Below, piece after piece: positions 9,001 through 60,000 of a DNA stretch of 64,000 nucleotides (position 1 is the stretch's first letter; the number at the start of each line of letters is the position of its first letter). The DNA lies in NCBI RefSeq assembly GCF_006345805.1, contig NC_043000.1, positions 117,118,001 to 117,182,000 of the forward strand. The letters are read 5' to 3'. This stretch comes from Octopus sinensis (lineage: Eukaryota). A program made the position numbers.

Positions 9001-12000
9001 AAGGCAATTCGTTGCTAAACCCTTTATTGCTTAGTATTAGTTAAATTTTCCTCGAATGAGGCTTTTACATGCCGAAGACTACTGGTGTAATTGATAATTA
9101 TTCCAAATTAATTAATTTCACCCTTCATTATTACGGATAACCATATTTTATCTCAGTAGATGACCACAGCATCTTGTTTTGGCTACACGCGGGTGGGAAG
9201 GGGCTGGTGACACAATCTTTCCATTCACACATTGAATTGGTGATACTAGTTGCGGATTCTAGCTCGCTCTGATACTGAGTTGAGTTGGTGCCTTCTAGTA
9301 TCTCAAAATTCAATATTAATCATTTATGATTATAGTATTCTACGCTGAAGAGAAAAGAAGTTTTTGGTAAGATAGAATTATTTAATATTTAATTCTTATG
9401 CTTTCCTAAAAACTTGATTTCGAAACGTACGTCCGTAGATAACTTAAAATTGTATGATAGATTGCCGTCAATTCATTCTCTCTTACCTGTTTGTGTCTGC
9501 CTTCCAATTGCTGTTTTTACTGAGATCTCCCTTTTTAGTAGAAGAAATAGCTATAACTCTTTGACTGATATTTCTAAATTCGGTATGTGGTAAGGCAATT
9601 CGTTGCTAAACCCTTTATTGCTTAGTATATATATATATATATATATATATTATATATATATATATTATATATATATATATATTATATATATATATATTTA
9701 TTTATATATATATATTTATTTATATACTTTATTATAAAGCTGCAAAGACATCACAAAACCTGTTACTCAGAGTTTCTCGTTCCCGTTCGTCGGACAGTTT
9801 TGGTTTCTGTCCGACGAACAATAACGTGAAGCTCTGAGTAACAGTTTTTGTGATGCCTTTCCTGCTTTATTAATAAAGCATATTTCTCCACCTACTGTAT
9901 TCGAGTACTATTTTTTCACCTTGTTTCGCATTTCTACTTTGGTATACGGACACAAACAAAATCCTGAAGTAAATCCAGCAGCATACACCTCCAAACTTCT
10001 GTTGAAATCAGGTGCCTAAATATGTGAATGAGCTTCAAACAGCATACTGCAAAGTGTATACCTGAATATAAAATTATTACCTATATATATATATATATAT
10101 ATATATATATATATAATATATATATATATATTATATATATATATATAATATATATATACACACATATATATACTTAAGTCAAACCATATAGAAAAAAATT
10201 AAAGATACGATAAAACATTTACCTAGAACTAAATAAAGTACGAAATGATAATTATATAGTATATAATTAGTAGGGATTTATTTATTATTATTTCGTAGTT
10301 TATTTATTTCTCGGTAAATGTTTTATCGTATTTTTAATTTTTTTTTTATATATATAGTACGATTTAAATATATCATTGTTGAATTGCTACATGGTGGTTT
10401 CTTCTCTAATTTATAAACATGTATTATATAATGTGAAATTTGATTTAGTATTTCTAAATTGAATTTTTCCCTGTAAGTTTGGAATCATATTCCCTAATAT
10501 ATATATATAATATATATATATATAGATATATATATATATATATATATATATATACACACATATATATACTTAAGTCAAACCATATAGAAAAAAATTAAAG
10601 ATACGATAAAACATTTACCTAGAACTAAATAAAGTACGAAATGATAATTATATAGTATATAATTAGTAGGGATTTATTTATTATTATTTCGTAGTTTATT
10701 TATTTCTCGGTAAATGTTTTATCGTATTTTTAATTTTTTTTTTATATATATAGTACGATTTAAATATATCATTGTTGAATTGCTACATGGTGGTTTCTTC
10801 TCTAATTTATAAACATGTATTATATAATGTGAAATTTGATTTAGTATTTCTAAATTGAATTTTTCCCTGTAAGTTTGGAATCATATTCCCTAATATATAT
10901 ATATAATATATATATATATATATAATATATATATAATATATATATATAATATATATATATATATATATATATATATGAAAAAGAACTGGGATAAATACGG
11001 TAAGGTGTTTCGTCGGAAGTTCAAATTACTCTGCCAATTGGCTATTCGTGAGTTATTGTCACAAATGCTTTTTATGTGTGTGTGTGTGTGTGTGTCTGCG
11101 CGTGTGTGTGTGTATGTGTCTGTGTATATGTGTGTGTGCTTGTGCGTGTATGTGTGTGTGTGTGTGTGTGCGTGTGTGTGTGTGTGCGTGTGTGCGTGTG
11201 CGTTCGTTCTATTGATTGGTAGAATTAACGAAAGTTAGGTTCTTCTGTAGTTTTACCAGCAGTGAAAAAGAATCCTTACTGCATCCGGAAAAAACAATTT
11301 GCAGTATTCCTTCCGACGTTTTACGTTCTGATTTCAAATCACGCTGGGATCGACCTTGGCTTTTATCCCTTCAGTGGTCGATAAAGTAAAGCACTAGTCC
11401 AGTACTGAGGTCAACGCAATATACTAACACTCAACCCCTAAAATTGCGGACCTTTCTATTTTAACTTCAATTCGTTTCCGTCATTGGAATGCGACTCTTA
11501 TTTTATCCGTTCTTTTTTTACTGAACCACTACGTCAAAGAACGTCAACAAACCAACACCCGTTGTAAAACGAGGATCGGGACAAACACAGTCACACACAA
11601 GCACATCACATACGCATGTGCTCTCTTATACACACAGGGTCGTTGTTTATGTTGCTTGTCTTGTTTACCATTTGTGTCTTTCGTTGTTCGAAAAAATAGT
11701 TCATATTCCATGTACTCGTACTTCGTATTTTTGTTGTACACGTTTCGTTACCTCCTGTGCCCACATATTCATATATGTATATGTATATATATATATATAT
11801 ATATATATATAATATATATATATATTATATATATATATTTGAGTAATTGAATGAATTATCTTATTAAGGATAATTCGAAAGATAACCGATACCTGGGTAG
11901 CAAATTCACATCAGAAAGAACACGGTTGAAGCTACGTCCCTAGGGCATAGACTACGTGTCTTCGTGCGGAAATTTGTATGTTTATTTTAAAATTATAAGT

Positions 12001-57000: not shown

Positions 57001-60000
57001 AGTGACCTTGGCTCTTGATAGGATAAGATATGTTTTTCATTTTAGTTTTAATGTATACGCCTGGAGCTGTTATTTTCTTATTCAGGTAGTCTACAAAACA
57101 TTAAATTTATATAATGTTATGTAGATAAACTGAAATAAAAAAACAACTCGAGGCATATACATTAAAATGATAGTTATACAGGAGAGCGAGGGAGAGGGAA
57201 AGAGAAACAGTGATGTATATAAATTATATATTATATATGTGTAGGAATGAAAGTGTGTGTATGTATATATATATATATATATATATATATATATACATAC
57301 ATACATACATACCCACCCGCACATATATTTACATATGTATATATATAATATATACATACACCTATACAAACATATATATACTCTTTTTTAAGAACTAATG
57401 AACTAATACGTACATACATATATAGACATATATATATTATATATTATATATATATATATATATATATATATATATATATACAATATATATACATACATAC
57501 ATACATACCCACCACACATATATTTACATATATATATATATATATATATATCATACACCTATACAAACATATATATAATACTCTTTTTTAAGAACTAATA
57601 CGTACATACATATATAGACATATATATATATTATATATATATATATATATATATTATATATATATATATATATATATATATATATATATTATATATATAT
57701 ATATATATATACAATGTAAATATTTATATGAATGTATGTATACATGTATATATATATATATATATATTTATATGTGTGTGGCGTGTGCGTGTGTATACAT
57801 GCTTACATACATACATTGTAAAAAAGGGAACAGCTTTTCTTTCTAACAAAGTTTATGTTAAGTTTGTTTTTGTTTTCGATTTTGTTTTCGTACTTCATAT
57901 TCCCTCAGTTTAAATTGGTTTGGAATAATAACATTTATATTCTTAATTCCATTATGCCGACATTTCGTGACTCAACAAAATCCCATTTTCAAAATAAAAC
58001 TGACTATAATGGGCTGTTGTCTGCGCGTTCTGCGTTGGCTGTTAAAGGAACTTGGGAATAAAATTATGACTAATAAAATCGAACTTGTAAATTAGTCAAT
58101 GGTTTTAATATATACTTTTAGTAGTCGTGGATATTCAACGATTAGTTTGAAAACTTTAAGTGGGTTGAAAATATGTAGTGTGTATATATTAGCTTTTCTG
58201 CCTCTCCCTGTATACAGGTACGTGTGGGTGTTTGTGTGTGTGCATATGTATATTTGTACAAACACACACACATGTTATATATATATATATATATATATAT
58301 ATATATATAATTATAATATATATATATATATAATATATATATATATATATATATATATATTATTATATATATATATATATATATCTGTAAAAGTAATGTG
58401 TGACAATTATTCGGTAGCCAGATAAAACAACTCCGAATTTCGGATGGCGAGGTGGAAATCCACGCCACCATCTCTTCAGTTATCCGGCCATCGGTTTTTC
58501 CGATTTCAACCTCGGCATCCGAAACTCGGAGTTTTATCTTGGCTCCCGAATAATTGTCACATATTACTTTTACAGATAAATGCCTCTGTTTACATAATAA
58601 CTAGGTCTCTTTCTTTCTTTCTTTGAATTGTCATTTTTATCAATATATATATACATATTGATAGATCGTTAGCCACTACACACATTTTTTCTCTCCTTGT
58701 TTTTTCTGTATCCCTTTCTGTAGAAGAGCGTAGGCTCGAAACGTAAAAGACTTTTTCTATTCCTCAGCGTTATACTAATACATCTGTTTGTTTTGTACAC
58801 CACCTGTCTTCGTCTTTTGTTTTTTTCGTAAACTCTCCCTATATACTGTTGCGGTCAAAGTGTTCAGAACGGCATTGTTTTCGTCAGAAAAGTAGATATA
58901 AGTTTTTATCAAAGTTGTTTTATATTCTATAATTTTCGCAGACAATAAATACAATATTATTTGTTATTGTCTGAGATTTTGGTGTAATTTGAGAGGATAA
59001 TACAAAAGTTATGGATGATTTAGTGATTTACTGCAAAACCCATGGCGGCCAAAATGATCAGAACGGTTGCTTTTACACTCGTGTGTTTAGTATATTTAAC
59101 CGGCGAACTCTAATGTTTTGAATTTGTTTACGTGACGGTTCGTTTACTAAACATTAGTAAGAATATTTGCAGTGTACGTTGTTAATATAATGCCACTTAC
59201 TCCGTTCCCAATTCGTCAGCAGATTATTAAGCTTCGAAGGAAGGATAATTTAAGTATTGGATCTATTGCAAAGATTTTTTAACAAGTCAAAAAGTGTTGT
59301 ACACGATATTCTTAAGGTCTACGATGATTGTGGTTCGTGTGAAGCAAGAAAGTTTACAGGTAGGCCAAGAAAAACGACCAAGAGTGAAGATCGTGCTATG
59401 GTAAAGTTGGTTAAAAGGACAGATTTAAAACTGCTGCTGCTGTTTCTCAGAAAATGAGCATTGTATTGAAGAAAACTTTATCTTGAAAAACTGTGTCTCC
59501 GTCATTAGTTTGAACATGACCTACAAGCAAGAGCACCTGCAGTGAAGCCACTGATCAGCTCCAAGAATAAAAAGTGTCGTCTTACTTTTGCAATCGCAAT
59601 GTGTTGTTGGTCTCAAGAAAAATGGCAAACGGTGTATTCAGTGATGAATCTAAGTTTATGCTATTTGGCTCAGATGGGAAAAGGTACGTTTGTACAAAAG
59701 TATGTGAAAAATTGTTGCCTAAATGCCTTAAGATTAGTGTTAAATTCGGTGGAGGAAGTGTCATGTTTGGGGAATGATATCTGGAGATGGTGTGGGTCCT
59801 TTGGCGCGAATTACATGGAATTAAATGCAGGAGTTTGTATAACAACTTGTAAAAGATCATGTCTTGCTTGTGCTGAGAATTCAACTAAGTGACCACCCAT
59901 ATTCATGCAGGACAATGCCCCATGTCACAAGGCTAAGGTGGTCATGAACTTCCTCGAGCTGAAAGGTTATTGTTATGGATTGGCCAGCTCAACGCCCAGA

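What the first reader, a model, noticed from the sequence alone, without database searches (positions are those of the whole stretch)
9728..58645. Recurrent insertion architecture: divergent inverted arms, one arm 60-160 nt longer
Seen at 9728-9940, 10165-10500, 11835-12262, 20553-20930, 20946-22012, 29215-29639, 45121-46690 and 58383-58645. Where a ribozyme motif gives orientation, the two arms point outward in ribozyme sense. One arm runs to a full terminus and the other stops earlier at an AT-rich internal site. In the 29-kb and 45-kb copies of one family the short arm stops at the same place, ~14 nt after GTCTC. Inference: both ends of a break in (TA)n prime reverse transcription, one at the RNA 3' end and one internally, and the cDNAs join centrally. 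The arms overlap in sequence, so two RNA templates are implied, which dimerisation through palindromic helix III could supply. Inverted pLTRs are known in PLEs; the fixed asymmetry and the dimer-template model are my inference.
Basis: partly seen in the sequence, partly recalled or inferred. Interest (0 to 1): 0.8.

Follow-up and report, generated by a model that had tools for sequence, protein, structure and literature searches.

The report
Penelope-type ribozyme elements in TA repeats
The repeated lopsided palindromes sitting in TA microsatellites are real, but they are the already described insertion signature of Penelope-like retroelements, here carried by small non-coding copies with hammerhead ribozymes.

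Summary
All 8 listed loci are inverted-arm inserts bounded by (TA)n, and one arm runs about 58-155 nt further out than the other. Where a hammerhead motif or shared 3' module gives polarity, the 3' ends face outward. All 8 short arms end in an alternating T/A run of 3 nt or more, against 10% of positions in the long arms. The 29-kb and 45-kb copies stop at the same internal site.

This is not a new kind of element. Head-to-head inverted 5'-truncated copies, a "tail" on only one end, AT-rich or (TA)n targets and minimal hammerheads with palindromic helix III are the published hallmarks of Penelope-like elements (PMC3846280, PMC8557442, PMC4209133). A purified Penelope-like protein cleaves and extends both target strands and starts reverse transcription at two sites (PMC11167929).

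The inserts are best read as non-autonomous Penelope-type, retrozyme-like elements placed by reverse transcription primed from both break ends. At 12 kb and 58 kb neither arm can be a copy of the other, so two templated syntheses are required. Supply of two templates by helix-III dimers is untested, and tandem inserts in the window suggest multimeric RNA as an alternative.

The modest new points are longer tails, a strict one-tail rule (8 of 8) and TA microhomology at every tail-less end.

The parts
9727..9797 (.). 9.7k locus: short arm, abutting TA tract 9626-9726
   Evidence: Aligns as reverse complement to 9807-9878, 62/72. Ends in ATAT next to the tract.
9807..10081 (.). 9.7k locus: long arm. 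The palindromic part runs to 9883. The extension has an undefined outer end (reader: 9940; next TA tract at 10082).
   Evidence: No hammerhead motif and no other copy in the window.
10162..10258 (-). 10.2k locus: tail-less arm
   Evidence: 83/103 to the reverse complement of 10279-10379. Ends in TATAT.
10279..10500 (+). 10.2k locus: tailed arm. The last ~120 nt are the 3' module shared with the 29k/45k family. The whole locus is duplicated at +396 nt (10558-10896).
   Evidence: nhmmer 5e-39 at 10310-10500 and 10706-10896. Alignment. Tandem duplication.
11839..12052 (-). 12k locus: tailed arm, 5'-truncated (tail 11839-11993). Its inner end lies 2 nt from the predicted hammerhead cleavage site of the partner copy.
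   Evidence: 57/59 to the reverse complement of 12204-12262. Sequence.
12053..12262 (+). 12k locus: tail-less copy containing a hammerhead motif (about 12126-12211). It stops at TTATA.
   Evidence: Core found. Palindromic helix III ACATATGT. End point.
12268..12362 (.). Tentative mini-insert of a diverged relative. It has a minus-sense piece ending at the same internal TATA-type site, plus a plus-sense terminal 44 nt.
   Evidence: Local scores 51 and 47, against a shuffle 95th percentile of 38 and maximum of 48 (200 shuffles).
20553..20759 (-). 20.6k locus: tailed arm (tail 20553-20648)
   Evidence: 101/112 to the reverse complement of 20823-20930. Polarity rests only on a hammerhead relic read by eye.
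20823..20930 (+). 20.6k locus: tail-less arm, stops at ATTATA
20947..21904 (-). 21.9k locus: head-to-tail array of 2.65 units of 363 nt. The full terminus lies at the left flank (tail 20947-21006). The hammerhead-like motif has a disrupted CUGANGA box.
   Evidence: TRF: period 363, 2.7 copies, 99%. Sequence.
21905..22013 (+). 21.9k locus: tail-less inverted arm, stops at CTATTAT
   Evidence: 109/109 to the reverse complement of 21007-21115.
29215..29463 (-). 29k locus: tailed arm (tail about 29215-29292) with hammerhead 29431-29388
   Evidence: nhmmer 2.4e-46.
29466..29637 (+). 29k locus: tail-less arm with hammerhead 29499-29542. The centre loop is 2 nt.
   Evidence: 168/172 between arms. Descriptor hit. 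Rfam Hammerhead_1 gives only 11.8 bits against a gathering score of 34.
45113..45453 (-). 45k locus: tail-less arm with hammerhead 45258-45216
   Evidence: 99.4% over 341 nt to 46617-46279..
45454..46278 (.). 45k locus: 825-nt non-palindromic centre with an internal 85% tandem duplication. It is probably the 5' continuation of the plus-sense copy.
   Evidence: The assignment is inferred only from a heptamer repeat that extends further on the right side.
46279..46690 (+). 45k locus: tailed arm with hammerhead 46473-46515 (tail about 46618-46690)
   Evidence: nhmmer 2.5e-46.
58384..58501 (-). 58k locus: tail-less copy. The arm is 58384-58460, and the centre holds the 5' half of a hammerhead-like motif (58487-58418). 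It stops at AGATA.
   Evidence: 69/78 to the reverse complement of 58502-58576. Descriptor hit with 8-bp helices I and II.
58502..58635 (+). 58k locus: tailed arm (tail 58577-58635), followed by a short TA run
8994..9625 (+). Not in the finding: a non-inverted hammerhead element. It is a 588-nt unit preceded by its own last 44 nt (partial tandem), lying between two TA tracts.
   Evidence: 46-nt 100% direct repeat 8992-9037 / 9583-9628. Hammerhead 9339-9439. Sequence.
56219..56455 (-). Not in the finding: a single copy of a relative of the 29k/45k 3' module. Its terminus lies at a TTTA/TA tract and no inverted partner was found.
   Evidence: nhmmer 8.2e-45. Alignment.
61209..61483 (+). Not in the finding: a simple 5'-truncated hammerhead element between two short TA runs
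   Evidence: Sequence. GAA plus palindromic ACACGTGT. Predicted dimer fold.

Best explanation
The eight loci are old and young insertions of several families of small non-coding retroelements of the Penelope-like (PLE) type. They resemble solo pLTRs or animal 'retrozymes' and carry minimal type-I hammerhead ribozymes. An autonomous PLE encoded elsewhere in the genome presumably mobilised them.

Proposed mechanism:
1. The target is a (TA)n microsatellite that is cut on both strands (inferred).
2. Each 3' end primes reverse transcription, so both copies have their 3' ends at the flanks and meet 5' end to 5' end in the middle. The layout is shown; the priming is inferred.
3. One end starts at the family's fixed 3' terminus. 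In half of the loci this terminus has no TA overlap.
4. The other end starts at an internal UAUA-like site that can pair with the TA end. This leaves that arm 58-155 nt shorter, which is a long form of the PLE 'tail'. The end points are shown; the pairing is inferred.
5. The 5' ends are joined at variable positions, giving centres from 2 nt to 825 nt.
6. Two template segments are needed. Two RNAs, two units of a multimeric RNA, or a circular RNA would all serve.
For: Layout:
- 8 of 8 TA-embedded palindromes are asymmetric. None has two long or two short arms.
- If each arm chose independently, at most 0.5^8 = 0.004 of such sets would be all mixed.

Polarity:
- It is outward in 6 of 6 loci where it can be read.

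Ribozyme motifs:
- 6 full descriptor hits, against a mean of 0.17 and a maximum of 1 in 30 Markov shuffles.
- GAA followed by a perfectly palindromic ACNNNNGT occurs 11 times, against a mean of 0.48 and a maximum of 2 in 100 shuffles. 8 of the 11 lie inside these elements.
- Four families carry four different palindromes.
- The first helix II pair is A-U at 29k and U-A at 45k, a compensatory change.

Short-arm ends:
- 8 of 8 end in an alternating T/A run of 3 nt or more, and 6 of 8 in 4 nt or more.
- The background in the same long arms is 0.104 and 0.045.
- Long termini have runs of 0-1 nt in 4 of 8.

Same-site use:
- 29k and 45k share the internal stop although their centres differ and they are about 87% identical.
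- The tentative 12.3k piece stops at the 12k site.

Retroelement traits:
- Inner truncation points vary within one family (29k against 45k).
- Head-to-tail arrays occur at 20947-21904 and 8994-9625.

Need for two syntheses:
- At 12k and 58k each arm has sequence the other lacks.

Literature:
- Inverted pLTR with a tail on one of the two, and AT-rich simple targets (PMC3846280, passages).
- Tail often at one end only, and (TA)n bias (PMC8557442, passages).
- Both strands cleaved and extended, two reverse-transcription start sites, tail equals the stretch between them (PMC11167929, main text).
- Dual minimal hammerheads 100-700 bp apart on opposite strands (PMC4209133, passages).
Against: - No PLE reverse transcriptase or GIY-YIG gene is in the window. 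The only RT is RVT_1 of LINE type. The link to a PLE enzyme is therefore by architecture alone.
- Rfam does not call the hammerheads. There is nothing at gathering score or at E<=10 on the whole window, and only 11.8 bits against a cut-off of 34 in a 181-nt search.
- 9.7k has no ribozyme motif. 20.6k has only a relic, and 21.9k has a disrupted core.
- In vitro, the anole PLE starts at sites not homologous to the target and shows no strand difference in start site. That does not predict TA pairing or a strict one-of-each rule.
- Full termini are confirmed by independent copies only for the 29k/45k/10.2k module, 21.9k, and tentatively 12k.
- Tails are 58-155 nt, against the published 30-40 bp.
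- I could not test whether the TA tracts pre-existed or were added or extended at insertion.
Confidence: 0.62

Rival explanations
1. Self-priming (snap-back). One target-primed cDNA starts at the full terminus. Its 3' end then folds back and copies itself outward until the new strand is captured by pairing of an internal TATA with the TA tract on the other side of the break. One RNA is enough.
For: Near-perfect centres at 29k (2-nt loop), 9.7k (9 nt) and 10.2k (about 20 nt). Two independent cDNAs are not expected to stop at the same base. Palindromes at inverted junctions led Arkhipova et al. to propose self-priming (PMC3846280). The model also predicts TA microhomology at the short end.
Against: It cannot make 12k or 58k, where the tail-less arm carries 5' sequence absent from the tailed arm. 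It also cannot easily make 45k, where the arms are separated by 825 nt. It needs a 64-nt loop at 21.9k.
Confidence: 0.15
2. Both arms were inserted full length. One tail was lost later by slippage or recombination between an internal TATA and the flanking (TA)n.
For: TA tracts are unstable. The model predicts T/A overlap at the deletion point, as seen in 8 of 8. The 396-bp tandem duplication at 10103-10967 shows that recombination between tracts does happen here.
Against: Exactly one tail is lost in 8 of 8 loci, never none and never both, including the youngest ones (arms 99.4-100% identical at 45k and 21.9k). 29k and 45k lost it at the same site although other TATA/ATAT sites exist in the tail. 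No displaced tail lies beyond any adjoining tract (nhmmer; sequences).
Confidence: 0.1
3. The loci are foldback or miniature inverted-repeat DNA transposons of Tc1/mariner type that target TA.
For: They have inverted arms and TA at both sides. The window does hold mariner and Tc1 remnants and a mariner-linked palindrome (15262-15503).
Against: The ends are not symmetric. The extra stretch carries a terminus shared by non-inverted copies. Inner junctions differ between copies of one family. Head-to-tail arrays occur. Hammerhead motifs point outward on both arms.
Confidence: 0.05
4. The palindromes are assembly or library chimeras.
For: PLE tandem and inverted structures are known to trouble assemblies (PMC8557442). 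The arms at 21.9k (109/109) and 45k (99.4%) are nearly identical.
Against: Six of eight loci have arms diverged by 2-19% with indels. A chimera would not produce that. The same architecture recurs in unrelated families.
Confidence: 0.03

Closest known systems
Canonical insertion structure of endonuclease-containing Penelope-like elements: direct pLTRs plus an adjacent inverted 5'-truncated pLTR, with a 'tail' at the 3' end of one of them (PMC3846280; PMC8557442)
   Same: Head-to-head inverted copies with 3' ends outward. An extension on one side only. AT-rich or (TA)n targets. Partial tandems. A hammerhead in the repeated part.
   Different: There is no coding region between the arms. The extension is 58-155 nt rather than about 30-40 bp. 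The tail-less end always shows T/A overlap with the target.
In vitro integration by the anole Poseidon element PAc (PMC11167929)
   Same: Both target strands are cut and extended. There are two discrete reverse-transcription start sites, and the stretch between them is the tail. Cleavage sites are AT-rich.
   Different: In vitro both strands used both sites, and the start sites were not homologous to the target. Here each insertion shows one of each, and the inner site pairs with TA.
Animal non-LTR retrozymes, i.e. non-autonomous derivatives of PLE pLTRs (PMC7229834; bioRxiv 10.64898/2026.07.22.740005)
   Same: Small non-coding units with type-I hammerheads. Tandem copies occur (363-nt units x2.65; 588-nt unit x1.07).
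   Different: The passages I read describe tandem or solo copies. Circular RNA could not be tested here.
Twin priming of human L1 (named from recall; only search listings of L1 papers were seen)
   Same: The second DNA end primes internally on the RNA, giving an inverted 5' part.
   Different: L1 twin priming uses one RNA and gives non-overlapping segments. Here the arms overlap by 59-341 nt, except perhaps in the tentative mini-insert 12268-12362.

Membership tests
Penelope-like elements (autonomous) | ORF with PLE-type reverse transcriptase and GIY-YIG endonuclease | tested here: not met
   No such ORF among the 41 stop-to-stop ORFs of 110 aa or more. I sent 8 of the 41 to Pfam, which returned only RVT_1 (LINE-type) and a Tc3 HTH. 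The loci are at most non-autonomous passengers.
PLE-type insertion (architecture) | Inverted 5'-truncated copy, head to head | tested here: met
   8 loci. Outward polarity in 6 of 6 readable loci.
PLE-type insertion (architecture) | Tail: 3' extension present at one end only | tested here: met
   8 of 8 have one extended arm. The length is 58-155 nt, longer than the published 30-40 bp.
PLE-type insertion (architecture) | Partial tandem (pseudo-LTR formation) | tested here: met
   20947-21904 holds 2.65 units. 8994-9625 is a unit plus 44 nt. The other loci show none.
PLE-type insertion (architecture) | Preference for AT-rich simple sequence or (TA)n | tested here: met
   All 8 loci abut TA tracts on both sides. 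I could not test whether the tracts pre-existed.
PLE minimal hammerhead (Cervera and de la Pena 2014) | CUGANGA, helix II, GAAA, short palindromic helix III, helix I; predicted to act as a dimer | tested here: met
   6 descriptor hits against 0.17 expected. Palindromic 8-mers 11 against 0.48. Cofolding gives the double-hammerhead with an intermolecular 8-bp helix III at 29k, 45k and 9.3k. Not supported by Rfam: 11.8 bits against a cut-off of 34. Cleavage was not tested.
Animal non-LTR retrozymes | Tandem hammerhead repeats expressed as small circular RNAs | not testable with these tools
   Tandem copies are seen. No transcript data are available.
TA-targeting miniature inverted-repeat DNA transposons | Symmetric terminal inverted repeats at both ends with a TA duplication | tested here: not met
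   The ends are asymmetric in 8 of 8. Inner junctions vary within a family.
microRNA hairpins (weak Rfam hits) | Score at or above the family gathering threshold | tested here: not met
   All miRNA-family matches on the palindromes are below gathering score. They reflect the hairpin shape only.

The most novel reading that the evidence does not exclude
In PLEs that target (TA)n, the two ends of one integration are mechanistically different and coupled. One end is started by the protein at the element's fixed terminus without base pairing. The other is started by pairing of the TA 3' end with an internal UAUA of a second template copy. The long-puzzling one-sided 'tail' would then simply be the distance between a protein-chosen and a pairing-chosen start. 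The dimeric ribozyme or dimeric protein might deliver the two template copies together.
Probability: 0.3. Interest if true: 0.5.

Novelty: new member of a known kind. Interest (0 to 1): 0.3.

Why it matters
These loci are natural end products of Penelope-type integration, whose steps after first-strand priming are still unresolved. They show that two templated syntheses are needed in at least two insertions. They also show that the tail-less end always overlaps the TA target. Both points could guide in vitro work with TA targets.

There is a practical side too. Such lopsided hairpins are easily mis-annotated as inverted-repeat DNA transposons or microRNA precursors; they gave many sub-threshold miRNA hits in Rfam. 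They can also break assemblies.

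Tried and rejected
- Rfam found no hammerhead on the whole window at gathering score or at E<=10. A 181-nt search gave Hammerhead_1 at 11.8 bits, far below the cut-off of 34. The ribozyme calls therefore rest on my own descriptors with shuffle controls.
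- I checked whether a TA tract grew inside a full arm and pushed the tail away. No tail sequence lies beyond any adjoining tract (and the sequences read). Only a 76%-identical terminal piece lies right of 12k, too diverged to be the missing tail of an arm that is 97% identical to its partner.
- The coincidence of the 12k inner end with the ribozyme cleavage site (2 nt off) is not significant. With 16 arm ends and a window of about 5 in 200 nt, one such hit is expected by chance in about a third of cases.
- The 21904/21905 junction has a 5-nt filler that can be read in two ways. I left it open.
- An ESM Atlas search with the LINE RT gave only generic RT clusters and did not identify the organism. 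The organism remains unidentified. A paper on penaeid shrimp linking Penelope copies with long (AT)n was read in passages (PMC7878876), but I did not test whether the window is from such a genome.
- PMC522041 (Pyatkov 2004) is not held. Arkhipova 2006 was not seen.
The supplementary figures of PMC11167929 (tail mapping) and of PMC8557442 may bear on tail lengths and target overlaps.
- My reading and searches turned up no statement that hammerhead dimers deliver two templates, or that tail-less ends pair with TA targets. This is not a full search of the literature.

Full report
**Setting.** The window is AT-rich (GC about 0.27-0.40 per 2 kb) and has no N. It is dense in simple repeats, with about 40 separate (TA)n tracts. 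It also holds a LINE-type reverse transcriptase (53294-55673, minus strand), mariner and Tc1 remnants, and a SINE-like 184-nt repeat. No Penelope-type gene is present. I could not identify the organism.

- 15262-15503, next to a mariner remnant
- 32003-32133, a CT/AG microsatellite
- 57046-57167
- 60556-61179
- the 230-nt terminal repeats of a Tc1-like element, 58840-59069 / 60245-60474

In each of the eight loci one arm continues beyond the palindrome to the next TA tract, and the other stops early.

| Locus | Arm identity | Extra length of long arm |
|---|---|---|
| 9.7k | 62/72 | 57-198 nt (undefined) |
| 10.2k | 83/103 | about 121 nt |
| 12k | 57/59 | about 155 nt |
| 20.6k | 101/112 | 96 nt |
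| 21.9k | 109/109 | 60 nt |
| 29k | 168/172 | about 75 nt |
| 45k | 99.4% of 341 nt | about 72 nt |
| 58k | 69/78 | about 58 nt |

The next tract begins at 10082. The arm divergence at six loci rules out an assembly chimera for those. The 10.2k locus occurs twice because a 396-bp block (tract plus element) was tandemly duplicated, so it counts once.

**Ribozyme motifs and polarity.** Rfam does not report hammerheads at its thresholds. In a 181-nt search Hammerhead_1 reaches only 11.8 bits against a cut-off of 34. This is expected for the minimal Penelope-type variant, whose helix III is a single pair capped by a palindromic loop (PMC4209133, passages read).

- My own descriptor requires CUGANGA, helix II of at least 4 bp, GAAA, helix III, a non-G cleavage base and helix I of at least 4 bp. 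It finds six motifs: 9339-9439 (+), 29499-29542 (+), 29431-29388 (-), 46473-46515 (+), 45258-45216 (-) and 58487-58418 (-). Thirty first-order Markov shuffles gave a mean of 0.17 and a maximum of 1.
- Two more motifs, at about 12126-12211 and 61221-61322, have interrupted helices II. They were accepted by eye.
- GAA followed by a perfectly palindromic ACNNNNGT occurs 11 times, against 0.48 expected and a maximum of 2 in 100 shuffles. Eight of the 11 lie in these elements.
- Four families carry four different palindromes.
- Between the 29k and 45k copies the first helix II pair changes from A-U to U-A.
- Cofolding predicts the classical double hammerhead, with an intermolecular 8-bp helix III, for the 29k, 45k and 9.3k motifs.

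Polarity is outward, with 3' ends at the flanks, in all six loci where it can be read. At 29k and 45k a motif lies on both arms. At 12k and 58k a motif lies on one arm and the other arm is homologous to its downstream part. At 10.2k polarity follows from the shared 3' module. At 21.9k it follows from a degenerate motif and the tandem unit boundary. 9.7k has no marker and 20.6k has only a relic.

**Where the short arms stop.** All eight tail-less arms end in an alternating T/A run shared with the long arm: ATAT, TATAT, TATA, TATA, TAT, TATATA, TATA and ATA. In the long arms themselves only 10.4% of positions end such a run of 3 nt or more, and 4.5% a run of 4 nt or more. Eight of eight is therefore far from chance (0.104^8 is about 1e-8). 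The long termini end in runs of 0-1 nt in four of eight loci.

The 29k and 45k copies are independent insertions of one family. They are about 87% identical, with different centres. A tentative diverged mini-insert at 12268-12362 appears to stop at the same site as the 12k short arm (scores only just above the shuffles).

**What the elements are.**
- A 3' module of about 110 nt is shared by the 29k, 45k, 10.2k and 56.2k copies. This shows a conserved terminus of the kind a reverse transcriptase recognises.
- Inner truncation points differ between copies.
- Head-to-tail arrays occur: 2.65 units of 363 nt at 20947-21904, and a 588-nt unit preceded by its own last 44 nt at 8994-9625.
- Some copies are simple, not inverted: 61209-61483 and 56219-56455+.

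These are retroelement traits, not those of inverted-repeat DNA transposons.

**What is already in print.** The full set of features matches the published structure of Penelope-like insertions:
[quoted passage not shown] - Minimal hammerheads in the repeats, sometimes as pairs on opposite strands 100-700 bp apart (PMC4209133).

**Mechanism.** Three points bear on it.

1. At 12k the tailed arm (11839-12052) lacks everything upstream of the cleavage site, and the tail-less copy (12053-12262) contains the whole ribozyme but lacks the tail. At 58k the tail-less copy holds the CUGAAGA box and the tailed arm begins inside helix II. Neither arm can have been copied from the other. Two syntheses on external templates are needed, which fits priming from both ends of the break.
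2. This agrees with the in vitro work on the anole element. There both strands are cleaved and extended, and reverse transcription starts at two sites whose spacing equals the tail (PMC11167929, main text read).
3. The overlap of the arms means two template segments, but not necessarily two RNA molecules. The tandem inserts in this window show that templates longer than one unit exist.

The near-perfect centres at 29k, 9.7k and 10.2k are equally well explained by the self-priming proposed by Arkhipova et al. The two routes may coexist.

Later loss of one tail by TA slippage would also give T/A overlap. It does not explain why exactly one tail is missing in all eight loci, including the youngest, nor the shared stop in 29k and 45k. 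If arms behaved independently, at most 0.4% of sets of eight would be all mixed. This figure is weakened by the small sample and by the way the loci were chosen.

**What is new, and what is not.** The architecture, the one-sided extension, the target and the dimer-type ribozyme are all in print. Three details may add something:
- the length of the extension (58-155 nt)
- its strict one-per-insertion occurrence here
- the T/A overlap at every tail-less end

The last contrasts with the non-homologous start sites seen in vitro for a PLE that does not target TA repeats. The idea that ribozyme dimers deliver two templates is not contradicted, but nothing in the data speaks for it.

**Limits.** This is one window with eight loci. 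Supplements of the key papers could not be read.

Noticed in passing
8994-9625: A hammerhead-bearing element between two TA tracts. It is built as a 588-nt unit preceded by its own last 44 nt, a pLTR-like partial tandem. Its ribozyme (9339-9439) has 6-bp helix I and palindromic ACGTACGT. A 3' fragment of the same family lies at 28997-29075, ending at the TA tract that also holds the 29k palindrome.
   Followed up: partly
61209-61483: A simple, non-inverted, 5'-truncated hammerhead element between two short TA runs. Helix III is palindromic ACACGTGT and helix II is long and interrupted.
   Followed up: partly
56015-56133 and 56219-56455: Two minus-sense relatives of the 29k/45k family, in the same orientation, separated by a TA/TG/TTTA tract. 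The first ends near the family's short-arm site but without a TA tract on that side. The second has the full terminus and a degenerate ribozyme half (GAA ACACGTGT).
   Followed up: partly
12268-12362: A possible mini-insert of a 70-76% diverged relative of the 12k element. It has an antisense piece ending at the same TATA-type site and a sense terminal 44 nt, with no overlap between the two, as in L1-style twin priming. Scores are only just above the shuffles.
   Followed up: partly
12052 / 12204-12206: The inner (5') end of the tailed 12k arm lies 2 nt from the predicted ribozyme cleavage site (GTC^GAG) of the partner copy. It looks as if that template had been self-cleaved. The coincidence is not significant on its own.
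   Followed up: yes
21900-21910: The centre junction of the 21.9k locus has a 5-nt filler (ACTAC). It can be read as a templated copy of a nearby 8-mer, or as the unit continuing to within 1 nt of the ribozyme-like cleavage site with one base lost.
   Followed up: partly
10103-10967: A 396-bp block (TA tract plus the whole 10.2k element) is tandemly duplicated at 97-98% identity. The likely cause is unequal exchange between TA tracts.
   Followed up: yes
2342-2353, 16983-16994, 18072-18083 (all minus strand): Three further GAA plus palindromic ACNNNNGT sites lie outside any element I defined. No CUGANGA box is seen upstream by eye.
   Followed up: no
60556-61179: A 636-nt palindrome (80% identity) with a TA run 13 nt beyond its right end only. 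No ribozyme motif was found. Its nature is unknown (foldback element or inverted duplication).
   Followed up: no
15262-15503 and 57046-57167: Two hairpin-like palindromes not in TA tracts. The first directly follows a mariner-like ORF remnant and may be a mariner-derived inverted-repeat element.
   Followed up: no
58840-60474: A Tc1-like DNA transposon remnant with 230-nt terminal inverted repeats (97%) and a Tc3-type HTH fragment (59509-59892). It lies directly right of the 58k locus.
   Followed up: partly
29419-29511, 20652-20927, 9755-9849 and others: The palindromes draw many sub-threshold Rfam matches to plant and animal microRNA precursor families. All are below gathering score. Permissive pipelines risk false annotation here.
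   Followed up: yes
4737-5060, 16100-16308, 17425-17850, 23362-23602, 32324-32749, 40387-40812, 49935-51053 and others: An abundant SINE-like repeat with 184-nt units, often as dimers. It is unrelated to the finding.
   Followed up: no
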